Program-made: the position numbers and the translations under genes
Part shown: positions 2,776 to 18,774 of the stretch, piece by piece
How positions within the stretch are numbered: the stretch's first letter is position 1
Layout: every line of letters begins with the position of its first letter
Notes under the pieces: model-generated
Database searches by the model: none
Seen by the model: only the letters and a program-made list of their open reading frames with translations
Told to the model about the DNA's origin: nothing
Origin: a phage
Reading direction: 5' to 3' (one strand)
Sequence record: PV806337.1
Length of the DNA stretch: 64,000 nucleotides

Positions 2776-3204
2776 TTAAGCAGTTAAACCTGGGATCATA
2801 TACCCGAAACGTCGAAGTTTCTGAATCCCCTCATTTACTTCTTCCGGTGAGTAAGACCAACCATAACGTTCATTAACCTGAAAACCAGGAGATTCACTAG
2901 TTTTATAGTTAACAACAAGGCGATGCTTAGCAGGCATAAACAGCTTATAATTTAACGCAAAAACTAAGCCCATTTCGTCTAACTCTTTCCAGCCCACAAT
3001 CTCTTCAAGACCATCCTCTACCTGCACAATTAAACCAATACAGGGGGCCTCATCAATATCATCTTTAAAAGCAAAGGAGATTTCGTTATTCTCACACCAT
3101 ATTTTCAAGGAGTTAATAGCCTCATTATACAGGCTAGCCGGTAGAGTACGCCAAAAGTTAACCAAAATTGGGTTAGCTTCTTTAGAGAATACATTATTGA
3201 ACAT
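2776..3204 (-). CDS. hypothetical protein, paralog of adjacent gene
   Basis: ORF track 142 aa; tandem with 2374-2766 and similar in sequence. Confidence 0.55.
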   Translation of the reverse strand: MFNNVFSKEANPILVNFWRTLPASLYNEAINSLKIWCENNEISFAFKDDIDEAPCIGLIVQVEDGLEEIVGWKELDEMGLVFALNYKLFMPAKHRLVVNYKTSESPGFQVNERYGWSYSPEEVNEGIQKLRRFGYMIPGLTA

Positions 3205-5566: not shown

Positions 5567-7414
5567 TTACTTAGCTCGAATATCCTGATGTTTCACCCTG
5601 CCCATAACCTCATGCTGTTTGCCTGGGTTAAATGGACGAGCACCTGGATTTCCAAGATACCCACAAACTCGACGAGTTACTTCAAGAGTTTCGGGGTCAT
5701 GATTACCACAGATAGGGCACTTAAATCCATCTTCGGATGCTATTGTTTCACCTAAGAATCCACATTTACCACAAGAATCCACTGGAGTATTAATACCGAA
5801 GTAATGAACTTTACTAGCAGCATAATTAATAACCCATTCTAGTGCATCTGGGAATCGTTTCATATCCGGTAGTTCTACATAGGAAATACACCCACCAGAA
5901 GCAATCGGAGTAAAGTTAGATTCATAATCAAATTTCACATTGGGAGCAACTTTACGTTCCACATCAAGGTGGTGAGAGTTAGTGTAGTATCCTTTGGACA
6001 GAATATCTTCATGCTCCGGGAAATATTCACGATCTAAACGGCAAAACCTATCACACAGGGACTCTGACGGTGTAGCATACAGGCTATAACCTAACTTAGT
6101 TTCTTCCTTCTTCTGATCGACTCTATCTCGCATGTACTGCAATACACGCTGAACAAACTTGATGCTGGTCTCGGACATTGTGTCTACATCTTTGCCAAAC
6201 ATGAACTGTAGCATTTCATGACAACCAATATATCCTAGAGATACAGAAGCACGGTTATAGAAATGATCGAATACGTATTCATCAGGCTCCAAGCGCAGTC
6301 CAAAGGCTCCTGACATATAGAGGATGGGTGCAGCTTTAGCTTGAATGTATTTTAAGCGATCAACTCTCCACTCCAACGCTTTTAATGCTGTATCCACACG
6401 TAGCTCAAGCAAATCAAAGAATAGATCAATATTTCCTTCAGCTTCGATAGCAATTCTAGGCAAGTTTACAGAAACAACACCTAAGTTATTACGACCTGCA
6501 GTTTCACCATCTTCTGTAGCAGCTAGGAATGAACGGCAGCCCATAGAAACTTTATAGTCACCAGTAACTTCCACAACCTTATCATAGCTGATATAATCTG
6601 GATACATACGTTCAGCAGTACATTTCATAGCTAACTTCTTGATGTCATAATTAACATCCCCTGGTTTCATATTAACGCCATCACGGAGTACAAATACCAG
6701 TTTAGGGAAGATAGCTGTACGCTTATTGATACCTAAACCATCCATGCGTACTTTCAGTATTGCTTTCTGTACTAGACGTGCTTCCCAAGAAGTTCCTAGA
6801 CCAAAACCAAAGGTAATAAATGGACTCTGCCCATTAGAGTTGAACATGGTATTGATTTCATATTCTAAACCCTGACAAGCGTCATAGACTTCTTTTTCAG
6901 TCATCTCCGTAGCCATTACGGATGCTTTGGCTTCATCCTTAGTCCAACGTTTTGCAAACGCATGATTTTTGTCATAAGATTTACGAACATAAGGGGCTAA
7001 TACTTCATCAAGGCGATCTACAGAAGTACCACCATACTGATGGGAGCTAACCTGAGTGATAATCTGAGCAGTAATAGCCGCCGCAGTAGTGATAGAGTTT
7101 GGAGTGCTAATTTCAGCATTACCAACCTTCATACCATTCTTCAACATATCTTCCAGAGCTACCAGGCAACAGTTAGTCATACCTAATGCAGCATAATCAG
7201 CATCATGGAAATGAATATCCCCAATCATATGAGCATTTCGAATCTGAATTGGCATTTCTTCTAAAATCAGATACTTACTCAATTCACCTGCAAGCATATC
7301 CCTTTGTGTAGGGAAACGTTCACTCGGTTTGTTCGCGTTATTAAAAAGTAACTCTTCATTGGCAGATCCCTCAATAATTTCCTTACAATTTCTAATCAAT
7401 TCATCTTTGTTCAT
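5567..7414 (-). CDS. nrdD: anaerobic ribonucleoside-triphosphate reductase (class III RNR)
   Basis: ORF track 615 aa; C-terminal Zn ribbon CGKCG..CPICG and glycyl-radical motif RRVCGYLG. Confidence 0.85.
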   Translation of the reverse strand: MNKDELIRNCKEIIEGSANEELLFNNANKPSERFPTQRDMLAGELSKYLILEEMPIQIRNAHMIGDIHFHDADYAALGMTNCCLVALEDMLKNGMKVGNAEISTPNSITTAAAITAQIITQVSSHQYGGTSVDRLDEVLAPYVRKSYDKNHAFAKRWTKDEAKASVMATEMTEKEVYDACQGLEYEINTMFNSNGQSPFITFGFGLGTSWEARLVQKAILKVRMDGLGINKRTAIFPKLVFVLRDGVNMKPGDVNYDIKKLAMKCTAERMYPDYISYDKVVEVTGDYKVSMGCRSFLAATEDGETAGRNNLGVVSVNLPRIAIEAEGNIDLFFDLLELRVDTALKALEWRVDRLKYIQAKAAPILYMSGAFGLRLEPDEYVFDHFYNRASVSLGYIGCHEMLQFMFGKDVDTMSETSIKFVQRVLQYMRDRVDQKKEETKLGYSLYATPSESLCDRFCRLDREYFPEHEDILSKGYYTNSHHLDVERKVAPNVKFDYESNFTPIASGGCISYVELPDMKRFPDALEWVINYAASKVHYFGINTPVDSCGKCGFLGETIASEDGFKCPICGNHDPETLEVTRRVCGYLGNPGARPFNPGKQHEVMGRVKHQDIRAK

Positions 7415-8072
7415 TAATTATTTCCTCAATAAACCTTGCTACTACTTCTGGCTCAATACTAAAAAATTCTGTAGCACCATCAAAATCTTTATATTGACAA
7501 TTATATTCCTTAAACTGTAAATGGGTTTCTCTCTCAATATGCATAGCTTTTGATCTATCTGAAAAGCTATACTCCTTAAATATTTTTAAATCATGTATGT
7601 TAGAGGAAGTTTTAATATCTCTGAGTCTATCTTTAGTTCTGCTAGACACACCTATTTTGGTTCCCACATTACTTACTAAAATATATACGTTAGTAGGATA
7701 ATTATCCTTCTCTAATAAACATATAGGACAACCAGAATTATGATTTCTAACACTATCAAGTGTAGACTCCCATTTATGATCATTCTCACAGCTGAACATG
7801 ATTTTACTCTTGGAATTGATATATTTACCTTCCATCTTTATTCCACGGGCAGCTAAAGATTCATTTACTTCTTTAAGATCTAAAGTACGGCTAGCACAAT
7901 AAGGGCAACCTCTACCACCTTTTACGTTATCTACTCTAGCCTCCCAACTATGCCCATTAGAGCACTTAAATATAGCCTTGGATTTAGCTGATACATACGT
8001 GCTTAGCATAACTATTCCTCTAGGAGCAAGTGCTAAGTTCACATCTTCTGTAGTTATTTTCTTTCTTACCAT
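7401..8072 (-). CDS. tandem zinc-ribbon + T5orf172 (GIY-YIG-like) domain protein
   Basis: ORF track 223 aa; two repeats with GCPYC/GCPIC; C-terminal YILVSN..KIGVS..R..GATEFF pattern. Confidence 0.6.
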   Translation of the reverse strand: MVRKKITTEDVNLALAPRGIVMLSTYVSAKSKAIFKCSNGHSWEARVDNVKGGRGCPYCASRTLDLKEVNESLAARGIKMEGKYINSKSKIMFSCENDHKWESTLDSVRNHNSGCPICLLEKDNYPTNVYILVSNVGTKIGVSSRTKDRLRDIKTSSNIHDLKIFKEYSFSDRSKAMHIERETHLQFKEYNCQYKDFDGATEFFSIEPEVVARFIEEIINEQR

Positions 8073-8294
8073 TAAATTCTCCTTAATTCACATATTATAC
8101 ATAATTCCACCCCATACGTCAACTACATTTTTCTAATACTATTTGACTTTTGATTTTTATCAATTTTTATTGATGCTATACAGCATAATATCTTTACATA
8201 TAAATAAATGATTATCTAGTATCATATTTCTACCTTTATAAGCAAGTAAATTTTTTATTTAAAAGCAATATCATAGGTTTATTTAAAATTATAC

Positions 8295-9517: not shown

Positions 9518-11848
9518 ATGAGCCATCGCATTGAAAAAGTAATTAAACGTGACGGTACTGTAGAAGACTTTGCTCCTGAAAAAATCAATGGTTGGGCAGA
9601 GTATGGTTGCAAAACAGTTGATGTAAGCTGGTCAGCCATTACTATGGCTGCTCAAAAAACTCTGCCTAAAGGGGTTGTAGATTCCGACACTCTGATGGAT
9701 GCATTAATTAAAGCTGCTGAAAGTCTTATTAAAGATAATCCAGCATACGATGTGCCAGCAAAGGAATTACGTCTTGCGCAAATGCGTAAACGCCTTTATG
9801 ACTCTTTCGAACCACCTTCTTTACGCTTCTTCCATGACCACATGGTTAGCGTAGGTGCATGGGAAGACATGAGTGCATGGATTACCGATGAGCAATTTGA
9901 AGCTCTGAATCAGGTTATCGACCATGATCGTGACCGTCTTTTTACTAGTGGTGGGCTGAAGCAGTTCTTTGATAAGTATTCCCGTCGTAATATAGCCACT
10001 GGTGAAATTTATGAAACCCCGCAATTCGCCTACATGGGTATGGCAATGGCGATGTTATCTCAACCTAACTGGACAATTCTAGATGCAATCGACCTCTACA
10101 ACGCAATGTCGCTCCACAAAATCAACGTTCCTACGCCGCCACTGGTTGGTCTGCGCTCTAGTGACCGTGGATTTGCTAGTTGCTGTCTCGTGGATTCCAC
10201 TGACACGTTGGATTCAATCGACACCGCCGAGCACATCGTCTTCAAAATGGTCGCAGCCAGAGCGGGAATCGGGTATCATCTTGAAAGCCGATCAATTGCT
10301 GATCCGGTGCGAAATGGGGCATTCCCGCATTCCGGAAAACTGCCATATTATCGACACATTGACCGCTCAGTAAAGGCCAATACTCAGCAAACTCGTGGTG
10401 GTTCTGCTACAGTGTCTTATCCATACTTCGACCCTGAAATCATTCAATTGATGCAGGTTAAGCAACAACGTGCTACAGATGAGAATAAAATCGATAAGAT
10501 GGATTATTCTCTGAGCTTTAACAATCTTTTGTTAAAACGTTATCTTAAAAACGAAGATATTACGCTAATGTCATACTTCTATGCTCCAGAAGTTCATGAA
10601 GCGTTTTATAGTGATGACGAGGCTAAATTTGAAGAAATCTACGTGGCAGCGGAGAAACGTGTGGCATCTCTTACAAAGATCGACCACGAAGGAAAAACAG
10701 TTCCTGCAGCTCCTAAAGTCTCTGCAAAAGAAATCCTAGATACTTGGCTACGTATCCGAATGGAAACAGGACGTATGTATGCTCACCACATTGGGGAATC
10801 TAATCGTCACGGTAACTTCCTTGATCCGATCCGTATGACAAACCTTTGTGTTGAAATTACTCAGCCTACACGCCCGTTCCATCACATTACAGAGCTGTAC
10901 AAGACAAAAGAGCAGCTTGATCAAATGAAGCCGGAGGATATTGGTGAAGTATCTCTGTGTAACTTAGGTGGTGTTGTACTTGGACGCATGGAATCTCTGG
11001 CTGAGTGGGAAAAAACTTGCTACATCCTTCTGAAGTTTGTTGATACAATTATTGAAATTCAGGATTATCCGTTCCCAACTATGGAATATACGGCCAAGAA
11101 ACGTCGTAATGTCGGTATTGGCCTAATGAACGCAGCAGGTGCAATGGCAGCAGAAGGTCTGGCTTACGAAGGTATTGAAGCTCGTAACTGGATCCACCGT
11201 GAGGCTGAAAAACTGTCTTACTTCCTGCATAAAGCCTCTGTACGCCTGGCTAAGGAACAGGGTGCATGTGAGTGGTTTGATCGTACTAAACCATCTAAAG
11301 GAATTCTGGTAATCGACACGTACAAGAAAACTGTTGATGAGCTGGTATCCGTAGGTCTAGAAATGGACTGGGAGTCTCTGCGTGCAGATATTCTGAAATA
11401 TGGTATGCGTAACTCTGTTCTGACTGCTCAGATGCCGGGAGAAAGTTCTTCTGTTCTGTTAGGTGTTACTAACTCTATCGAACCACCTCGTAAGATTGTA
11501 TCTATCAAGGGTAGTGCAGTAAATAAAGTAATTGCAATTGCTCCAGGTGCAACCGATTGGGAAACGTTAATGAGCTATAAATTGGCTTATGATGTAGATC
11601 GTATCGAGTGGATCAAATGGGTAGCAACTATGCAGAAATTCTTCAGCCAGTCTGTTAGTACTAATATGTACTACGACTACACCAAGTTTGAGAATGAAAT
11701 TATTCCTGGCCCAGTAGTAGTTCGTGATTTCATGACTGCTGTTAAATACGGGTGGAAAACTTGGTATTATGCTAACTTCAACACCGCAAATGGTGGTGGT
11801 GCTGGAGAAGAAGCAGCTGGTTGTGCATCAGGCGGTTGTACTATTTAA
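9518..11848 (+). CDS. nrdA: ribonucleoside-diphosphate reductase alpha subunit (class I RNR)
   Basis: Track ORF 9413-11848; ATG 9518 after AAAGGAAAG; N-terminal ATP-cone KRDGT, core motifs NLCVEI and C-terminal Cys pair. Confidence 0.9.
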   Translation: MSHRIEKVIKRDGTVEDFAPEKINGWAEYGCKTVDVSWSAITMAAQKTLPKGVVDSDTLMDALIKAAESLIKDNPAYDVPAKELRLAQMRKRLYDSFEPPSLRFFHDHMVSVGAWEDMSAWITDEQFEALNQVIDHDRDRLFTSGGLKQFFDKYSRRNIATGEIYETPQFAYMGMAMAMLSQPNWTILDAIDLYNAMSLHKINVPTPPLVGLRSSDRGFASCCLVDSTDTLDSIDTAEHIVFKMVAARAGIGYHLESRSIADPVRNGAFPHSGKLPYYRHIDRSVKANTQQTRGGSATVSYPYFDPEIIQLMQVKQQRATDENKIDKMDYSLSFNNLLLKRYLKNEDITLMSYFYAPEVHEAFYSDDEAKFEEIYVAAEKRVASLTKIDHEGKTVPAAPKVSAKEILDTWLRIRMETGRMYAHHIGESNRHGNFLDPIRMTNLCVEITQPTRPFHHITELYKTKEQLDQMKPEDIGEVSLCNLGGVVLGRMESLAEWEKTCYILLKFVDTIIEIQDYPFPTMEYTAKKRRNVGIGLMNAAGAMAAEGLAYEGIEARNWIHREAEKLSYFLHKASVRLAKEQGACEWFDRTKPSKGILVIDTYKKTVDELVSVGLEMDWESLRADILKYGMRNSVLTAQMPGESSSVLLGVTNSIEPPRKIVSIKGSAVNKVIAIAPGATDWETLMSYKLAYDVDRIEWIKWVATMQKFFSQSVSTNMYYDYTKFENEIIPGPVVVRDFMTAVKYGWKTWYYANFNTANGGGAGEEAAGCASGGCTI

Positions 11849-11855
11849 TAAAAAC

Positions 11856-11880
11856 AAGGAGATCTTCGGGTCTCCTTTTT
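11856..11880 (+). terminator. rho-independent terminator after nrdA
   Basis: Hairpin AGGAGATC-TTCG-GGTCTCCTT then T-run. Confidence 0.7.
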
Positions 11881-11894
11881 CTTTGAAATTTTAC

Positions 11895-11923
11895 TTGCTA
11901 ATCGCTACCAGATTTGCTATAAT
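11895..11923 (+). promoter_or_regulatory. T5-type promoter (TTGCTA-17-TATAAT) for nrdB-folA-thyA
   Basis: -35 at 11895-11900, -10 at 11918-11923, just after nrdA terminator. Confidence 0.7.
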
Positions 11924-11954
11924 ATTCCTGAAATAGTGAGAAAGAGGAAAATCA

Positions 11955-13100
11955 ATGACTACTTTACTAAACCTGAATTGGGATCATACTAACGCCGACC
12001 TTTTCCTGGGAGATTCTCTCGGTATCGCAGATTATGTACGTGTAGCACATCCAGAACTAGAACGTCTGGCACTTCTGCAGCGCTCTCAATTTTGGACTGA
12101 AACTGAAATCAGTCTGGAAGCAGATAAGAAACAATGGCCTAATCTCCCACGAGAAATTCAGGAAATTACACTCCTGAACTTAGCATGGCAAACTCAAACT
12201 GATTCCTTTATCAGTCGTGCCCCTGAAGCAGCTATTATGCCGCTTGTAAGTCGTCCAGAATTGGAAGGTATGCTCAAACAGTGGAGCTATTTTGAAGACC
12301 TGCATAGTCGTGCTTATAGCAATATTATTCGTAATGTGCTGACTGATCCAGCAGAATTTATTGATTCTGTAACCAAAAACCAAGAAGCATTCGCGCGCAT
12401 CGCTGATTCTGTTGAACTATTCGATGAACTGTACCAGTTAGGTCAGTATTTCATCGCAGTACGCGATCATCGTGGCGACAATACATATCCAGAAACTGAG
12501 TTCCCTGAAGTTAAACGTGAAACTCAGGCTAAACTATTAGACGCTTACTTTGCGATCTATGGTCTGGAAGCAATGCAGTTTTACGCATCCTTTGCATGTA
12601 CCTTTGCATTAGCAGAGAACGATATTCTGCAAGGTATTGCTAAAAATCTGCAATTAATCGCTAAAGATGAAGCTCTGCACACTCAGATGTCCAAAGCAAT
12701 CATCCAGATTATGTTTCAGCAATTTGACAAAGATCTGGTAGATGAAGCAGTGGCTAAAGCACCAGCACAGCTCCTGAAAACTCTGAAAACTGAAATTGAA
12801 TGGGGTCATTTCATTTTCAAAGGTCGTAGTCTGATTGGCTTGAATGCAGAACTTCTAGAAGAATATCTGTATTTTGTGGGACGTAATGCATTTATGCACA
12901 TCGGTGTAGAATGGCCTAGTCATTTACCAGTAATCACCAAAAACCCTATTCCGTGGATTATGAACTGGTTGGATACTACTTCTCTACAGCCTGCTCCACA
13001 AGAAATCCAGATTGGTGCAGCCTACCGTGTAGGTCAGGTAACTGAGACCTCTACTGATACTCTGAAAGATCTGGGTAATGAATTTGGAGATTTCTTATGA
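11955..13100 (+). CDS. nrdB: ribonucleoside-diphosphate reductase beta subunit
   Basis: ORF track 381 aa directly downstream of nrdA; ferritin-like di-iron type sequence. Confidence 0.85.
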   Translation: MTTLLNLNWDHTNADLFLGDSLGIADYVRVAHPELERLALLQRSQFWTETEISLEADKKQWPNLPREIQEITLLNLAWQTQTDSFISRAPEAAIMPLVSRPELEGMLKQWSYFEDLHSRAYSNIIRNVLTDPAEFIDSVTKNQEAFARIADSVELFDELYQLGQYFIAVRDHRGDNTYPETEFPEVKRETQAKLLDAYFAIYGLEAMQFYASFACTFALAENDILQGIAKNLQLIAKDEALHTQMSKAIIQIMFQQFDKDLVDEAVAKAPAQLLKTLKTEIEWGHFIFKGRSLIGLNAELLEEYLYFVGRNAFMHIGVEWPSHLPVITKNPIPWIMNWLDTTSLQPAPQEIQIGAAYRVGQVTETSTDTLKDLGNEFGDFL

Positions 13101-13630
13101 TTACAGCAATGTATGCAGTTGGGCCGAATGGGGAGTTCGGCCTCCGCGGTAAACTTCCATGGGGTTCCTTCAAAGAAGAACTAGATGCTTTCTATTCTCA
13201 ACTGGACGTGTTGAATCCAGATAACATCATCATTGGTGCGGGTACTTATTTAGCTCTTCCATACGCCGTTAGAGAACGTATGATTGGAGCTTCTGACCTA
13301 TTTATTCGTGCTGATCGTCCACTGCCAGATGATATTACACATGATATTTACACCCCAATTTCTAAGATTGGGGATGCTTTACCTACATTTCTGAAAGATC
13401 AGCAGACAGTAGTTCTAGGTGGTGCTAACCTTCTTCTAGAAATGTATCAATATGGTCATATTGAAAGTGCTTTTGTATCCACAATCTTTAGTAATCAAAA
13501 ACTAGAGGCAGATGTATATCTGGATAATACGATTCTAGATTACAACTATGAATCTACTCGTTTAGTTTACGCAACTGGCGCAAACAGTGATAACAGCCTG
13601 CGATTTGTACAGGAATTGGTTACTTATTAA
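13097..13630 (+). CDS. folA: dihydrofolate reductase
   Basis: ORF track 177 aa; stop/start overlap with nrdB and thyA; DHFR-like N-terminus (GKLPW). Confidence 0.7.
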
Positions 13631-14484
13631 TGGATCAGTATATAGAAGTTGGAAAACGTATTCTATCAGAAGGTCAGTGGGTAACGAATCCCAGAACAGG
13701 GGTTCGTTGCCTCACCATTATTGATGCAGATTTTACTTTTAACGTAGGTGCAGGTGAATTCCCACTTATTACTACTCGTAAGGCGTTTGCAAAACAAGCA
13801 ATAATGGAAATGATTGGGTATCTACGTGGGTATGATTCAGCAGCACAATTCCGCGCTATTGGTGTTAACACATGGAATGCTAATGCAAATGAAAACTTAG
13901 CTTGGCTAGACAATCCATACCGTAAAGGTGAGGATGATATGGGACGAGTCTATGGTGTTCAAGGACGTCAGTGGACTAATTCCGATGGTCTTATGTTTGA
14001 CCAACTAGTCAAGATTTATCATAATCTGAAAAAGGGCATTGATGATCGTGGGGAAATTCTAACCTTCTGGAATCCGGGGGAGTTCTCAAAGGGTTGCTTA
14101 CGTCCATGTATGCATACTCATCAGTTCTCTATTTTGGGAGATACATTATATCTGAACTCTTTCCAGAGATCTAATGACTTCCTGTTAGGCCAAGTATTTA
14201 ACATGGTTCAGTGCTATACGCTTCTAGCATTAATGGCACAGATTACAGGCCTTAAACCAGGAATTGCACGCCAGAAGATTATCAATCTTCATATCTATGA
14301 GGATCAGTATAATGTTTTGATGGAGCACAAGCAATTCGATCGTGAACCTTTTGCACTCCCAACTCTAGAAATTAATCCAAATATTAAGACTTTAGATGAC
14401 GTATTGACTTGGGTAAGTAAGGATGATTTTACTGTTCAAGGTTATGAACATCATCCAGCTATTGCATACCCATTCACTGTTTAA
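13630..14484 (+). CDS. thyA: thymidylate synthase
   Basis: ORF track 284 aa; active-site-like RPCMHTHQF and ThyA-like downstream block. Confidence 0.8.
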
Positions 14485-14497
14485 TTTAAAATATTAT

Positions 14498-14527
14498 TTG
14501 CTTTAATCCCAGTACTTATAGTATAAT
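14498..14527 (+). promoter_or_regulatory. T5-type promoter upstream of HNH endonuclease
   Basis: TTGCTT at 14498-14503, TATAAT at 14522-14527. Confidence 0.6.
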
Positions 14528-14558
14528 ATCTCCTATATACATTATAGGAGATATATTT

Positions 14559-15113
14559 ATGATCGTACAAGAGGGGTGGACAAAAGAATCCGCACGTAAT
14601 AGGTTTATCTATAATCCTCTTACTGGGGAGATTTTAAATAGAATTAACAGTGGTAGGGCTAAGAAAGGACAGATAGCCGGGTACCTAGACAAGTCTACTG
14701 GATATATTCGGGTAACATTGGCAGGAAAAAGAATGAAAGGACATCAGTTAGCCTTCTTATACATGGAAGGATATATACCTGATACTATAGATCACATCAA
14801 CAGAATAAAATCTGATAATAGATGGTGTAATTTAAGGGAATCTTCACCCCAAGAGAATGCTAGAAATATTAAAGCAAGAAGTAAATCTGGTTATTTAGGG
14901 GTTGGGTGGCATAAGCCAAGTCAAAAATGGTGGGTATATACTAAAGATGTAAAAGGAGCGCAGATTAATGGTGGTTACTTTGATTATACGAAATTAGAGG
15001 AAGCAGTCAATAAAGCTAATGAACTCCGTCAGCAATTACATGGACATACTGCTATTTTAGAAGTTTTTAATCCTGATCAACCAATACCTACCATAGAGGA
15101 ACTTAATAAATGA
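14559..15113 (+). CDS. HNH homing endonuclease with AP2-like DNA-binding domain
   Basis: ORF track 184 aa; IDHINRIKSDNRWCNLR (HNH) and SKSGYLGVGWHK (AP2-like); own promoter at 14498-14527. Confidence 0.75.
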   Translation: MIVQEGWTKESARNRFIYNPLTGEILNRINSGRAKKGQIAGYLDKSTGYIRVTLAGKRMKGHQLAFLYMEGYIPDTIDHINRIKSDNRWCNLRESSPQENARNIKARSKSGYLGVGWHKPSQKWWVYTKDVKGAQINGGYFDYTKLEEAVNKANELRQQLHGHTAILEVFNPDQPIPTIEELNK

Positions 15114-15586
15114 GTGTTTTCCACATTTACACAGATGGTGCTTGTAAGTCTAACCCAGGTCCAGGTGCTTGGGGATTTATTGTCTATGATGATAACGATG
15201 ATCGTTTAGGTTCTAAATCTGGATATAGTCCTAAAACTACAAATAATGAGATGGAACTCACGGCTATTGTAGAGGCTCTACGTTGGTCAGTTAAAAAAGA
15301 TAATAGACCAATTGTTATCTATACTGATTCTGCTTATTGCAAAAATGGTATGGAAAGTTGGATGTTTTCTTGGCAAAGGAAAGGCTGGAAGAAAGCAGAT
15401 GGTGAAGTTCCTCTTAATCTAGAACTTTGGCAGGAAGCATTTAAATTAACACAGCAGTATATCAACTTTCATAATACTAACCCTACCTTTATTAAGGTTA
15501 AAGGACATTCTGGTATTAGTGGTAATGAAGCTGTAGACGCCTTATGTAACACAGTTATTACTGAAGCTGAAATGGCTGAGATGTGA
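15110..15586 (+). CDS. rnhA: ribonuclease H
   Basis: ORF track 158 aa; N-terminal IYTDGACKSNPGPGAWG typical of RNase HI. Confidence 0.8.
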   Translation: MSVFHIYTDGACKSNPGPGAWGFIVYDDNDDRLGSKSGYSPKTTNNEMELTAIVEALRWSVKKDNRPIVIYTDSAYCKNGMESWMFSWQRKGWKKADGEVPLNLELWQEAFKLTQQYINFHNTNPTFIKVKGHSGISGNEAVDALCNTVITEAEMAEM

Positions 15587-15607
15587 TAAATAAATTAAAA
15601 AATTTTC

Positions 15608-15636
15608 TTGCTTAAAGCCCTCTAATTTAGTATAAT
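15608..15636 (+). promoter_or_regulatory. T5-type promoter
   Basis: TTGCTT 15608-15613, 17 bp, TATAAT 15631-15636. Confidence 0.7.
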
Positions 15637-15663
15637 ATTCGTATTGAAAGTGAGGAGGGCTTT

Positions 15664-15942
15664 ATGAGAATTTATAACTCAAATTCATTAGGATTTAAAC
15701 CGTTGAGAAAACGTGCACAATCACCTCGTCAAATAAGAAAGGCTAATATTGGTGAGCCAGAAACACGTCTTCCACCTCCTCCGGAACAACGTTTAGTTTA
15801 TCTGGATGAAGAATTAGCTGAACGCGAAAGAAAAGCTCAAGAAGAGATTGAGCGTAAGAAAATGTGTACTGCTCCAGCATATAATAAAGGAGCGTATCAA
15901 TATGTTTCCGATGCAGAACAAGCCAAGATGGTTGGTAGATAA
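15664..15942 (+). CDS. hypothetical protein
   Basis: ORF track 92 aa following promoter 15608-15636 and GAGGAGG RBS. Confidence 0.55.
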   Translation: MRIYNSNSLGFKPLRKRAQSPRQIRKANIGEPETRLPPPPEQRLVYLDEELAERERKAQEEIERKKMCTAPAYNKGAYQYVSDAEQAKMVGR

Positions 15943-15958
15943 TTTTTAAAAAATTCAT

Positions 15959-15987
15959 TTGCTAAACGCTTCAAATTCTCGTATAAT
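15959..15987 (+). promoter_or_regulatory. T5-type promoter with AAAAATTCATTTGCTA upstream block
   Basis: TTGCTA 15959-15964, 17 bp, TATAAT 15982-15987. Confidence 0.75.
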
Positions 15988-16025
15988 ATACTTCATAAAT
16001 TGATAAACAAAAAGGAAAATAAATA

Positions 16026-16541
16026 ATGGCTAAGCAGAAAAACGCAAAAACTCAAGCAGCCCCGGCAGTTAAAACTTTCCCTCAGACTGAGGCTAACCGC
16101 AAAGCTCGTCTGGAACGCCACCTGCGCAAGCACCCTACTGATGCTCAAGCTGCACAGGCACTGAATCGTCCGGCTCCGATTCGTCAAAAGCCGAAGGCTA
16201 AGAATACCACTCGTTCTGTAGTCCGCCTTGTGACCTATGTACAGGGTTATGGTCACAAATCTGTTCCAGTAGCACTGAGTTTCAATGCTGGAGCAGAATT
16301 GTTCCCTCGTAATGGCATGGCCATGAAAGATTACGAGAAAGCAGTTAACCAGAAACGCAAACCAACGGCAGATGTATTGCGTGATACTCGTGGACAGTTT
16401 GGTTCTGTTAAGCCAAATATCTTCGGTGTAGAGTATAGCAAAGATAATGTTCGTGCTCTATGTTACGGTGTAGGCATTAAGTTCACGGGTGATTCTGCTC
16501 GTAAATCTGCTAAACCAGCTCGTAAACGTAAAGCGAAGTAA
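16026..16541 (+). CDS. basic, Lys/Arg/Ala-rich protein (possible nucleic-acid-binding)
   Basis: ORF track 171 aa; promoter 15959-15987; highly basic termini. Confidence 0.6.
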   Translation: MAKQKNAKTQAAPAVKTFPQTEANRKARLERHLRKHPTDAQAAQALNRPAPIRQKPKAKNTTRSVVRLVTYVQGYGHKSVPVALSFNAGAELFPRNGMAMKDYEKAVNQKRKPTADVLRDTRGQFGSVKPNIFGVEYSKDNVRALCYGVGIKFTGDSARKSAKPARKRKAK

Positions 16542-16605
16542 TAGATAAATAGGGGCAGAAGCCCCTACAATCTACTAATTCTCTAACTAATCAAGGATAT
16601 TTTTT

Positions 16606-16821
16606 ATGTTCTCTAAGAAACCACGTTCCGTTACTGAAATCGTTGCTTCCTTTACCACTATCACTGATGAGCTTCAAGCTCGTATTGAGGCTGATCAAAA
16701 AATTGCGGCGGATATTCAGAAACAGCAGGAAGAACTCGCTTTAAAGTTGGCTGAAACCAACAAGAGTGAAAAATCTGCCCAAACTATTATGGAAAATATC
16801 CTTAAACTGCTGGGCAAGTGA
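16606..16821 (+). CDS. hypothetical protein
   Basis: ORF track 71 aa between two hairpins. Confidence 0.5.
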   Translation: MFSKKPRSVTEIVASFTTITDELQARIEADQKIAADIQKQQEELALKLAETNKSEKSAQTIMENILKLLGK

Positions 16822-16862
16822 TTTAAATCAGGGGGCGAAAGCCCCTCTTATTTGGAGAAACT

Positions 16863-17099
16863 ATGCGTAATTTTGTAGCAAAGAATGATTTTAACCGTGC
16901 TAGCACTCATAAGTCCGCTAGAGATTATACACGACTTTCTAGTCATGAGGTAATGGACACCTGTTATGAAGAGCTGGAAGGTAGCTGGAATGAATGGCCC
17001 GACTTCTCTATGGAAGAGAACTGGGATGTCAGTGAGGATATGCTTCCTGGCTTTAAAGACCCCAAGAAGTGGGAGTCTATTAAAGAGCTGTCTCTTTAA
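16863..17099 (+). CDS. hypothetical acidic protein
   Basis: ORF track 78 aa with GGAGA RBS; overlapping reverse ORF judged spurious. Confidence 0.5.
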   Translation: MRNFVAKNDFNRASTHKSARDYTRLSSHEVMDTCYEELEGSWNEWPDFSMEENWDVSEDMLPGFKDPKKWESIKELSL

Positions 17100-17127
17100 T
17101 AGTTTTCTACACAATAAAGGATAAGTT

Positions 17128-17829
17128 ATGAAAGTAAAACCATTTGGTATGCTAGATATTGAATCTCTGGGAACTCCAGGAGATTGTGGTACTACTCATA
17201 TCGCAATGCCTTCTTTCGCTTTTGTGGCTATGCATGGAATTGATAAAGACCCTGATCTAATATTTGTTACTTTGGATGTACAAGATCAGCTTAATTCTGG
17301 TGCCAAAGTTACAGCATCTACTCTAGCATTCTGGATGGATCAAGCTAAAAATAGCCCGTCTGCTATCCACATTATGGAAGCTATGAAGGAACGTAATCCA
17401 AAACTGATTGCCTTCCAAAATGGTAAACATCATTGCACTAATAAACTCGGCTCTAACTATGCTGCCTACTCTATGGCTAAAAATATTATGGAGTTGGCTT
17501 TAGGCGAAAATGCTTTGTATTATGGAAACGGTCCAGAGTTTGATATGACTATCTACTCTGCAAACACGTTCCATGCTGGAACCAATGAAGAGGTAGTTCC
17601 GTGGAAATTCTGGAATTTGGGTAATGTTCGATCTCTTCGTAACCTCTGGATGCAGGCTGGATACAGTTATAAAGCTCTAGAGACCGAAGGTATTAGCTGG
17701 GCAATAGCTAAAATGGAGAAGATGGACACCATTCGTTATGGGATCTATCCGGTTAAGCACGACCCAGCATTTGATGCCTTAGTTGAGAGCTATTGTGTTG
17801 CAGCTATGATCGAAAAAATGAAAATTTGA
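17128..17829 (+). CDS. DnaQ-like 3'-5' exonuclease
   Basis: ORF track 233 aa; Exo I-like MLDIESLG and Exo III-like HDPAFDAL motifs. Confidence 0.6.
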   Translation: MKVKPFGMLDIESLGTPGDCGTTHIAMPSFAFVAMHGIDKDPDLIFVTLDVQDQLNSGAKVTASTLAFWMDQAKNSPSAIHIMEAMKERNPKLIAFQNGKHHCTNKLGSNYAAYSMAKNIMELALGENALYYGNGPEFDMTIYSANTFHAGTNEEVVPWKFWNLGNVRSLRNLWMQAGYSYKALETEGISWAIAKMEKMDTIRYGIYPVKHDPAFDALVESYCVAAMIEKMKI

Positions 17830-17830
17830 T

Positions 17831-17859
17831 TTGCTTCCGGCTCCAAAATTCTGTATAAT
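17831..17859 (+). promoter_or_regulatory. T5-type promoter
   Basis: TTGCTT 17831-17836, 17 bp, TATAAT 17854-17859. Confidence 0.7.
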
Positions 17860-17899
17860 ATATTCATAAATTTGAGAAAACAATAAAAGGAAAACAAAT

Positions 17900-18082
17900 A
17901 TGCCAGTATCTAAAAATGTTCGTAAAAATGGTAAGAAAGCTACTCGTAATCTGGGTATCCGTCGTATGGCTGAACGTCAATCAGGTATCCAGAAAATCTT
18001 TGATCTGCTAAATCGTGCTAATCCTAAAATTGATAACAGTAACGATACTGTTCTGCGCACTCTGCTGGCAATTGGTCTGTAA
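17900..18082 (+). CDS. hypothetical small basic protein
   Basis: ORF track 60 aa after promoter 17831-17859. Confidence 0.5.
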   Translation: MPVSKNVRKNGKKATRNLGIRRMAERQSGIQKIFDLLNRANPKIDNSNDTVLRTLLAIGL

Positions 18083-18135
18083 TAGACCAACTTTAAACAA
18101 ATTCAAATCTCAAACTTCATATAAGGAAGCAAATA

Positions 18136-18774
18136 ATGACTACTCGTATCTCTAAAACTCGCGCTCTGGCAACTATCAAATCTCTGGAAGCTAAAATCCG
18201 TAAAGCTACTGAACAACAGCTTCTGATCGCTGTTGGTGAAGGTAAGGATAAAAATAAGGTTGTAGTTGGCGCTGCAATCGAAGTAGATGATTTATCTGAG
18301 CGTATTAAGACAGATTTCCAGTCCCTGCTGGATATGATGTCCCAGCGTGATCGTATCAAAGCTGCTCTGATTAAGAGCAATGCAGAAACGATCGTTGAGA
18401 TAGGCTCTCGTAAAATGACTGTTGCGGAAGCAATTGAAGCTAAGCGTTCTATGGAACTTAAAGCCCAACTGCTGGCTAACATGCGTAAGCAGTTCCATGC
18501 CGCCACGGTTAAGTTTAATACGCAGAAAGCACAGTTTGATGCTAAATATGAGCGTTTGCAGGATAGCATGGCTACCCGTGATAAGAAAACTTCCGAAGAT
18601 GAAGTTAAAATGCAGCTCAACCTGCTGGAACTCAAGAATACTCCATTCTTGATTGATCCGCTGGAACTGGAGAAGCTGATTAAGCAGCATGACGAGGAAT
18701 ACCAGGACTTTGCAACAAATGTTGATTTTGTTCTGTCCGAGTCTAACGCCTCTACCTTCATTGAAGTAGAGTAA
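18136..18774 (+). CDS. hypothetical protein
   Basis: ORF track 212 aa with AAGGAAG RBS; two overlapping reverse ORFs judged spurious. Confidence 0.6.
   Translation: MTTRISKTRALATIKSLEAKIRKATEQQLLIAVGEGKDKNKVVVGAAIEVDDLSERIKTDFQSLLDMMSQRDRIKAALIKSNAETIVEIGSRKMTVAEAIEAKRSMELKAQLLANMRKQFHAATVKFNTQKAQFDAKYERLQDSMATRDKKTSEDEVKMQLNLLELKNTPFLIDPLELEKLIKQHDEEYQDFATNVDFVLSESNASTFIEVE

What the first reader, a model, noticed from the sequence alone, without database searches (positions are those of the whole stretch)
14559..15113. HNH-AP2 homing endonuclease wedged between thyA and rnh
An HNH motif (IDHINRIKSDNRWCNLR) plus an AP2-type DNA-binding domain, with its own promoter, sits between two conserved nucleotide-metabolism genes. 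This is the typical footprint of a free-standing homing endonuclease invading a conserved operon.
Basis: partly seen in the sequence, partly recalled or inferred. Interest (0 to 1): 0.45.

Follow-up and report, generated by a model that had tools for sequence, protein, structure and literature searches.

The report
Free-standing HNH-AP2 homing endonuclease gene
This is an ordinary selfish nuclease gene (an HNH-AP2 homing endonuclease) in a T5-like phage; it occupies a much-swapped slot between the thymidylate synthase and RNase H genes and brought about 160 bases of its donor's thymidylate synthase gene with it.

Summary
The ORF at 14559-15113 (+, 184 aa) is real. It has an I-HmuI-like HNH nuclease domain with its catalytic residues intact, and a C-terminal AP2-fold DNA-binding domain. 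The window is a T5-like phage (Tequintavirus). The gene is rare: about 10 of about 450 T5-like records carry it, and 99%-identical copies are already annotated as 'HNH homing endonuclease'. T5 itself has an empty thy-rnh site, and other relatives carry at least eight other cassettes there, including an I-TevI-like GIY-YIG gene and its remnant. The window's backbone is nearly identical to EC148/T5_ev212 up to 14327. A donor-type block then starts inside thyA. This 157-nt thyA 3' tract is found only in HNH carriers (10 of 259 records). The block lacks the terminator found in other alleles, keeps the site's TTGCTT-N-TATAAT early promoter, adds a hairpin over the ribosome-binding site, and ends by overlapping the rnh start codon. 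dN/dS against a diverged variant is 0.11. The promoter is the locus's promoter rather than the gene's own, and thyA is not a uniformly conserved flank. Cleavage and homing are inferred, not shown. This is a known kind of element and of low interest.

The parts
13630..14484 (+). thyA (thymidylate synthase, 284 aa, 'window type'); left flanking gene
   Evidence: Pfam Thymidylat_synt E=1.2e-68. T5 and many relatives instead carry a 279-aa thy that is only 28% identical.
14328..14484 (+). Variant 3' tract of thyA that travels with the HNH gene (a co-conversion-type tract); the left end of the imported block lies between 14262 and 14328
   Evidence: Window vs T5_ev212: 2 mismatches over 11500-14327, then 24 over 14328-14481; differing codons are 14 synonymous and 5 non-synonymous. 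The tract is >=98% identical among four HNH carriers and 77-88% in 12 non-carriers. Database-wide, only the 10 carrier records are >=96% identical out of 259. The closest HNH-less sequence is GSW6 at 92%.
14485..14497 (+). Spacer that lacks the GC-rich terminator hairpin (AGCCCTTCGGGGCT + T-run) found after thy in all alleles without this HNH
   Evidence: Spacer comparison across alleles of both thy types; EH7 variant spacer.
14498..14527 (+). T5-type early promoter: TTGCTT, 18-nt spacer, TATAAT
   Evidence: The motif occurs 13 times in the window vs 0.09 expected. It is positionally equivalent to the promoter in every other allele, and the T5 record annotates a promoter here. No transcript data.
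14526..14554 (+). 12-bp hairpin whose 3' arm contains the Shine-Dalgarno AGGAG (14546-14550); its 5' arm starts within the -10 hexamer
   Evidence: -14.5 kcal/mol on its own. The SD is fully paired in modelled read-through RNA and partly open in RNAs starting at 14532-14537. It is preserved in the diverged EH7 variant, with a C-to-U change that keeps a G.U pair, and absent from the other alleles.
14559..15113 (+). HNH-AP2 endonuclease ORF, 184 aa
   Evidence: dN/dS of 0.108 against the 74%-identical EH7 variant.
14559..14864 (+). I-HmuI-like N-terminal beta region plus HNH (beta-beta-alpha-metal) nuclease domain, residues 1-102; D78-H79, N91 and N100 align with I-HmuI D74-H75, N87 and N96
14880..15050 (+). 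AP2-fold DNA-binding domain, residues 108-164 (three beta strands and a helix)
15110..15115 (+). ATGAGT: the HNH stop codon TGA overlaps the rnh start ATG. Ser2 of rnh is AGT here but TCG/TCA in HNH-less alleles. This is the right end of the block shared by all carriers.
   Evidence: Junction comparison; mismatches at 15113-15115 against HNH-less alleles.
15110..15586 (+). rnh (RNase H, 158 aa); right flanking gene, probably co-transcribed with the HNH gene
   Evidence: Pfam RNase_H E=2e-32. The rnh haplotype is not linked to HNH presence.

Best explanation
The ORF is a free-standing homing endonuclease gene of the HNH-AP2 class in a T5-like phage. Shown here: it encodes an I-HmuI-like HNH nuclease fused to an AP2-fold DNA-binding domain, it is kept under purifying selection, it is present in only a few relatives, and it sits in a slot that is empty in T5 and holds other cassettes elsewhere. 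Inferred: during mixed infection the protein binds, through its AP2 and N-terminal beta regions, a site in the HNH-less allele. The best guess for that site is the last ~160 nt of the window-type thyA, or the GC-rich terminator just after it. The protein then nicks or cuts there; its closest structural relative, I-HmuI, is a nickase. Recombinational repair from the HNH-carrying genome copies the gene and the DNA between the cut and the gene. That would explain why the block begins inside thyA (~14328) and why that thyA tract is always inherited with the gene. The carrier's own allele would be protected by the substitutions in the tract and/or the missing terminator. The gene is transcribed from the resident early promoter together with rnh. 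A hairpin over its ribosome-binding site probably keeps translation low on transcripts that read through from thyA.
For: Domains and fold; catalytic positions conserved. Purifying selection: dN/dS 0.108. Sporadic distribution: 9 records at >=95% protein identity plus 3 at 60-80%, among about 447 T5-like records. Empty site in T5. Hotspot with at least 8 other cassettes, including an I-TevI-like GIY-YIG gene and its deletion remnant. Near-isogenic comparison: the window differs from T5_ev212 at 2 positions in 2.8 kb, then at 24 positions in the last 154 nt of thyA. The tract is strictly linked to the gene: 4 of 4 carriers against 0 of 12 non-carriers, and 10 of 259 records database-wide, all carriers. 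The cassette is 98.7-99.5% identical across carriers whose adjacent rnh differs by up to 18%. The cassette lies at a change of ancestry: EC148-like on the left, SPLA5b-like on the right. This is the pattern reported for phage nuclease genes (PMC10448857). HNH-AP2 is a recognised homing endonuclease class (Magnani 2004, cited). HNH genes are described as the main source of differences among T5-like genomes (PMC10644984).
Against: No cleavage, target site or biased inheritance has been shown for this protein or any close homolog. The non-nuclease 93-aa cassette at the same slot is also far more conserved (98.7%) than the neighbouring frd (89%), so cassettes can move here without encoding a nuclease. 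The right flank (rnh) shows no tract linked to the gene. The carrier records are few and partly redundant: RefSeq/GenBank duplicates and three sister GEC phages. A 92%-similar thyA tract exists in GSW6 without the gene, so the tract may simply be donor sequence rather than an immunity determinant. In promoter-initiated RNA models the ribosome-binding site is only partly freed.
Confidence: 0.8

Rival explanations
1. Passive cassette. The gene is one of many interchangeable cassettes at a recombination hotspot. It moves by ordinary homologous recombination between the conserved flanks (thy 3' end with terminator and promoter on the left, rnh on the right) during co-infection, and its nuclease plays no part in its spread.
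For: At least 8 other cassettes, mostly without nuclease domains, occupy the slot and combine with both thy types. The non-nuclease C5 cassette is also more conserved than its backbone. T5-like genomes are mosaic throughout.
Against: The protein keeps an intact catalytic motif and is under purifying selection. Unlike the other cassettes, whose homology break is at the thy stop, this one carries a private 157-nt thyA tract. Three HNH-AP2 lineages and a GIY-YIG nuclease have all settled at this one site.
Confidence: 0.12
2. Co-opted function. The protein now mainly benefits the phage, for example by cutting competing T5-like genomes (interference competition or marker exclusion), or by acting as an AP2-type DNA-binding regulator of the thy-rnh region, rather than acting as a purely selfish element.
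For: Purifying selection. Placement in an early operon upstream of and overlapping rnh. Published precedents exist for homing endonucleases used in phage competition or immune evasion (titles and abstracts of PMC11620839, and PMC13096335).
Against: Rarity among relatives argues against an important phage function. Nothing here distinguishes this reading from selfish homing, and the two are not exclusive.
Confidence: 0.07
3. Recently inactivated element. The ORF is intact, but the enzyme no longer has a cleavable target in the population or has lost activity, and it persists only by linkage.
For: Decay at this site is documented for the GIY-YIG gene (remnant in L021). The older HNH182 lineage diverges in step with its backbones, as expected for vertical inheritance.
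Against: Full-length ORFs in all carriers. dN/dS of 0.11. 99% identity across diverged backbones indicates recent spread.
Confidence: 0.08

Closest known systems
I-HmuI (Bacillus phage SPO1; PDB 1u3e)
   Different: I-HmuI is encoded in a group I intron and has a helical C-terminal DNA-binding domain. This protein is free-standing and has an AP2 domain instead. Identity is 23%. That I-HmuI nicks one strand is from memory; it is unknown whether this protein nicks or cuts both strands.
HNH-AP2 homing endonucleases (Magnani, Sjolander and Hake 2004, PMC520932, as cited in PMC10448857)
   Same: The same two-domain architecture, N-terminal HNH and C-terminal AP2, reported in phages, cyanobacteria and protists.
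   Different: That class was defined by sequence. This member's AP2 domain falls below Pfam's threshold and needed a family profile and a structure model to confirm it.
T4 free-standing endonuclease genes next to nucleotide-metabolism genes (MobE at nrdB, PMC2790892; SegG with co-conversion from a distant cut site, Liu et al. 2003, cited)
   Same: A free-standing gene between conserved genes, with flanking DNA transferred along with it and a cut site expected in the neighbouring gene. A hairpin occluding the ribosome-binding site recalls the translational control of T4 endonuclease genes (from memory).
   Different: A different phage family and a different DNA-binding domain (T4 Mob proteins use zinc fingers). 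No experimental data exist for this gene.
T5 HNH endonucleases (F-Tfl enzymes, Akulenko et al. 2004, cited in PMC10644984; hegH/P-TflVIII in the T5 record)
   Same: They are in the same phage group and the same nuclease superfamily, and are recognised as the main source of differences among T5-like genomes.
   Different: They sit at other loci, and T5 has nothing between thy and rnh. The T5 HNH next to nrdB matches only residues 57-115 at 40% identity.
IPA-HNH and 'nuclease genes at boundaries of genetic exchange' (Barth, Dunham and Seed 2023, PMC10448857)
   Same: An HNH-AP2 architecture, placement beside essential or metabolic genes, interchangeable nucleases at one site, and a position at a change of ancestry.
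   Different: IPA-HNH domains escape the Pfam HNH_3 model, whereas this protein matches it clearly. That study did not highlight HNH-AP2 genes in T5-like phages; it noted T5orf172 genes there.

Membership tests
HNH / His-Me finger endonuclease (Pfam HNH_3, PF13392) | Match to the family model above the curated cutoff | tested here: met
   46.2 bits against a cutoff of 24.8, E=3.6e-12, residues 62-102.
HNH / His-Me finger endonuclease (Pfam HNH_3, PF13392) | Catalytic His and metal-binding Asp/Asn positions present | tested here: met
   D78-H79, N91 and N100 align with I-HmuI D74-H75, N87 and N96. H79, N87 and N91 are invariant in 19 homologs. The residue roles are from memory of the I-HmuI structure paper.
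HNH / His-Me finger endonuclease (Pfam HNH_3, PF13392) | Beta-beta-alpha-metal fold | tested here: met
HNH / His-Me finger endonuclease (Pfam HNH_3, PF13392) | Metal-dependent DNA nicking or cleavage | not testable with these tools
   Needs purified protein.
AP2 DNA-binding domain (PF00847) | Match to the Pfam model above the curated cutoff | tested here: not met
   15.2-17.8 bits against a cutoff of 33.3, although the match covers model positions 2-54 of 54. Two homologs have precomputed PF00847 hits.
AP2 DNA-binding domain (PF00847) | Significant profile-level homology to solved AP2 domains | tested here: met
   WRI1 E=1.1e-8, TEM1 E=6.4e-7, ERF096 E=7e-4.
AP2 DNA-binding domain (PF00847) | Three-stranded antiparallel sheet packed on one helix | tested here: met
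Free-standing homing endonuclease gene | A separate ORF between host genes, not inside an intron or intein | tested here: met
   thyA and rnh are intact on either side.
Free-standing homing endonuclease gene | Sporadic presence among close relatives, with alleles lacking it | tested here: met
   About 10-12 of about 447 records carry it. T5 has an empty site. The nearest backbones EC148 and T5_ev212 lack it.
Free-standing homing endonuclease gene | Flanking markers co-inherited with the gene (co-conversion) | tested here: inconclusive
   On the left the criterion is met: a 157-nt thyA tract is strictly linked to the gene. On the right there is no linked tract beyond 6 nt. The pattern is also compatible with a single ancestral import that later spread by ordinary recombination.
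Free-standing homing endonuclease gene | Site-specific cleavage of the allele lacking the gene, and resistance of the carrier allele | not testable with these tools
   Candidate target regions are named but not tested.
Free-standing homing endonuclease gene | Nuclease-dependent biased inheritance in mixed infection | not testable with these tools
   Needs phage crosses.

The most novel reading that the evidence does not exclude
The thyA 3' tract that always travels with this gene is the enzyme's immunity determinant, and the enzyme targets the 3' end of the window-type thymidylate synthase gene or the terminator behind it. On this reading, successive nucleases at this one slot (three HNH-AP2 lineages and an I-TevI-like GIY-YIG) drive both the cassette turnover and the coexistence of two unrelated thy alleles in T5-like phages. 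The promoter-in-hairpin arrangement would be an independently evolved translational throttle, like the one used by T4 endonuclease genes.
Probability: 0.2. Interest if true: 0.4.

Novelty: already known. Interest (0 to 1): 0.18.

Why it matters
It matters little beyond correct annotation. The HNH-AP2 class has been described since 2004, homing endonuclease genes are the recognised cause of mosaicism in T5-like phages, and 99%-identical copies are already labelled 'HNH homing endonuclease' in GenBank. The useful by-products are practical. The window and EC148/T5_ev212 form a near-isogenic pair, with and without the gene, that could serve for a clean homing cross. The candidate target region is narrow, about 200 bp. 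The thy-rnh slot is a compact natural example of nuclease turnover (invasion, replacement, decay) in a phage group used for therapy.

Tried and rejected
1. A single-sequence search of solved structures gave only irrelevant hits; a family profile was needed.
2. The single-sequence Pfam AP2 match is below threshold.
3. The generic sigma-70 scan did not list the promoter; a genome-specific motif count did.
4. Base composition does not set the gene apart from rnh (GC about 0.35-0.38 for both), so it was not used.
5. 'Cassette more conserved than backbone' was tested as evidence for nuclease drive and found not to be specific, because the non-nuclease C5 cassette behaves similarly. That script stopped with an error before the C9+C11 and empty-site classes were processed.
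6. A co-conversion tract on the rnh side was looked for. The window's rnh 5' differences from T5_ev212 are not shared by other carriers and belong to a longer segment of different ancestry running to about 18.7 kb.
7. An exact-match scan of IMG/VR for the variant thyA tract found nothing, and none of the 30 IMG/VR loci carry this HNH.
8. No paralog of the gene exists elsewhere in the window.
9. The idea that this is the enzyme making T5's natural genome nicks was rejected, because T5 lacks the gene.
10. A packaging-associated HNH was rejected because of the early-gene location and the rarity of the gene (inference).
11. The hairpin as a replacement terminator was judged weak: only 3 G-C pairs and a poor T-run.

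Full report
What is there. The window is from a T5-like phage. A 3.6-kb query around the finding matches 447 phage records, nearly all Salmonella or Escherichia Demerecviridae. The best match is Escherichia phage ESCO30 at 95.6%. Over 25 kb the closest backbones are EC148 (98.8%) and T5_ev212 (98.5%), and no record is identical. The ORF at 14559-15113 (+) is real. It has an ATG start and encodes 184 aa. It follows nrdA, nrdB, frd and thyA on the same strand, and its stop codon overlaps the start of rnh.

Distribution. By tblastn, only 9 phage records encode this protein at >=95% identity: ESCO30, GEC_vB_N3/N5/N7 and vB_Sen_I1, including RefSeq duplicates. Three more fall at 60-80%, including EH7. 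Relatives below 60% occur in about 2,600 records of many phage groups and in many genomic contexts. The carrier records already annotate the gene as 'HNH homing endonuclease'. There is no paralog in the window.

The slot. I compared the thy-rnh interval in 38 related loci.
- T5 itself and two other phages have nothing there: a 131-133 bp spacer in which the T5 record annotates a promoter.
- Other phages carry a 93-aa ORF; a 66-98-aa ORF with or without the 93-aa ORF or an 89-aa ORF; or a 127-aa ORF followed by a 182-aa HNH-AP2 gene that is 53% identical to this one.
- Still others carry a proteasome-like 192-aa ORF, a DUF3307 membrane protein, or an I-TevI-like GIY-YIG endonuclease. One phage retains a deletion remnant of that GIY-YIG gene.
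- The thymidylate synthase gene itself comes in two types that are only 28% identical. These are the window type (284 aa) and the T5 type (279 aa), and they combine freely with the cassettes.
So the site is a cassette hotspot and thyA is not a uniformly conserved flank.

Footprint of import. Against T5_ev212 the window has 2 mismatches between 11500 and 14327. It then has 24 mismatches in the last 154 nt of thyA, with 14 codons changed synonymously and 5 non-synonymously. After that comes unrelated sequence up to the second codon of rnh. This variant thyA 3' tract is >=98% identical in all four independent carriers and 77-88% identical in 12 non-carriers, whereas the rest of thyA and rnh do not sort by carrier status. 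Across the whole phage collection, 259 records have this thyA type. The only ones >=96% identical over the tract are the 10 carrier records. The next best is GSW6 at 92%, and all others are <=89%. GSW6 belongs to a divergent thyA lineage and has no HNH gene. The tract therefore looks like ordinary thyA sequence from a GSW6-like donor lineage that was carried in with the gene. The block shared by all carriers runs from about 14328 to 15115. It is 98.7-99.5% identical among carriers whose adjacent rnh genes differ by up to 18%. At its right end the HNH stop codon lies inside the rnh start (ATGAGT), and the second rnh codon is AGT instead of TCG/TCA. To the right, the window stays moderately different from EC148 up to about 18.7 kb and best matches a third group of phages (SPLA5b, PMBT29; 98.7%). 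The gene therefore sits at a change of ancestry.

A control that weakens one argument. The non-nuclease 93-aa cassette is also much more conserved (98.7%) than frd (89%) among its carriers. 'Cassette more similar than backbone' is therefore not specific to the nuclease, and cassettes can move here by ordinary recombination. What is specific to this gene is the private thyA tract. The other cassettes break homology at the thy stop codon.

Regulatory anatomy. In every allele without this HNH type, and with either thy type, thy is followed by a GC-rich terminator hairpin (AGCCCTTCGGGGCT plus a T-run). Next comes TTGCTT-N17-TATAAT. In the window the terminator is missing and the promoter is TTGCTT-N18-TATAAT (14498-14527). 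That motif occurs 13 times in the window against 0.09 expected by chance, so it is this phage's standard early promoter type. Starting at the last two bases of the -10 hexamer is a 12-bp hairpin (14526-14554, -14.5 kcal/mol) whose 3' arm holds the Shine-Dalgarno AGGAG. In modelled read-through RNA the Shine-Dalgarno sequence is fully paired. In RNAs starting at 14532-14537 it is only partly open. The diverged EH7 variant (74% protein identity) keeps the promoter, also lacks the terminator, and keeps the hairpin, with a C-to-U change that preserves pairing as G.U. I read this as a translational throttle on read-through transcripts, with modest confidence (about 0.35). There are no transcript data.

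Selection. dN/dS between the window gene and the EC148-unrelated EH7 variant is 0.108 (dS 1.44, dN 0.156). The protein has therefore been maintained as a working protein.

Mechanism. The most likely account, at about 0.8 for the class assignment, is a free-standing homing endonuclease gene that spreads in mixed infections by cutting or nicking the HNH-less allele and being copied in during repair. The nuclease and DNA-binding folds, conserved catalytic positions, purifying selection, sporadic distribution, empty sites and linked flank tract are shown. The cutting, the target and the bias in inheritance are inferred. The block always starts about 160-230 nt to the left of the gene, which points to a target in the last ~160 nt of the window-type thyA or in the terminator that carriers lack. 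I cannot choose between these. Whether the enzyme nicks, as I-HmuI and the T5 F-Tfl enzymes do (from memory), or cuts both strands is unknown.

Comparison with what is known. HNH-AP2 homing endonucleases were described in 2004 (Magnani et al., cited). Nuclease genes at boundaries of genetic exchange, and interchangeable nucleases at one site, were described for other phages in 2023 (PMC10448857). HNH genes are named as the main contributors to differences among T5-like genomes (PMC10644984). Free-standing endonuclease genes beside nucleotide-metabolism genes are classic in T4 (PMC2790892). The finding is a correct call of a known kind of element, already annotated as such in close relatives.

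Verdict. Novelty: already known. Interest: low (0.18).

Noticed in passing
window 7401-8072 (-), within the 7397-8205 patch: A second free-standing endonuclease-type gene: 223 aa with two treble-clef zinc fingers, a CapR homology domain and a T5orf172 (GIY-YIG-related) domain. It lies directly upstream of nrdD on the same strand. EC148 and T5_ev212 lack it (206 bp there against 809 bp in the window), and mismatch density is raised on both flanks.
   Followed up: partly
window 13630-14484; loci L006-L032, L043: T5-like phages carry one of two thymidylate synthase genes that are only 28% identical: the 284-aa window type and the 279-aa T5 type. Both sit in the same position between frd and the same terminator, and both combine freely with the downstream cassettes. 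This is a clean whole-gene replacement.
   Followed up: partly
L008 1853-2626 and L021 2462-2720 (coordinates with the rnh start at 3001): An I-TevI-like GIY-YIG endonuclease gene (GIY-YIG, NUMOD3 and I-TevI DNA-binding domains) directly follows the T5-type thy gene in one phage. Another phage keeps only a ~250-bp remnant made of its first and last codons. I-TevI itself targets the T4 thymidylate synthase gene (from memory).
   Followed up: partly
window, 13 sites, e.g. 8295, 15608, 17831, 19998, 24508, 27361, 30173, 37171, 42532, 45195 (+): TTGCTT-N16-18-TATAAT occurs 13 times against 0.09 expected by chance. Most copies have a 17-nt spacer ending in TG before the -10 hexamer. The copy upstream of the HNH gene is the only one with an 18-nt spacer and has no TG.
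   Followed up: partly
window 15904-15948 vs L041 15233-15721: The window lacks the ~450-bp COG3236/DUF1768 gene ('GTP cyclohydrolase II' in the annotations) that EC148 and T5_ev212 carry two genes downstream of rnh. This is another presence/absence difference close to the HNH gene.
   Followed up: no
window 11849-11954; L002 1-459; L043 5037-5401: The nrdA-nrdB spacer is empty in the window (107 bp). T5 (hegH, P-TflVIII) and phage Th1 ('homing endonuclease C') have an HNH gene immediately upstream of nrdB.
   Followed up: partly
window 13147-13451 (inside frd): Mismatches between the window and several relatives cluster densely in the middle of the dihydrofolate reductase gene. frd is the least conserved gene of the block, at 82-94% between phages whose neighbouring genes are 95-99% identical. 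The window protein also matches Pfam DHFR_1 only weakly (E=0.004).
   Followed up: no
L028 2150-2728 and L031 2420-2998 (coordinates with the rnh start at 3001): A 192-aa protein with a proteasome-subunit (Ntn-hydrolase) domain (Pfam PF00227, E=2.5e-9) occupies the same thy-rnh slot in two phages.
   Followed up: no
window 14328-18750: The window is a three-way mosaic around the HNH gene. The left side is EC148/T5_ev212-like and almost identical. The HNH block is ESCO30/GEC-like at 99%. The right side, up to about 18.7 kb, is closest to SPLA5b, PMBT29 and mar004NP2 at 98.7%.
   Followed up: partly
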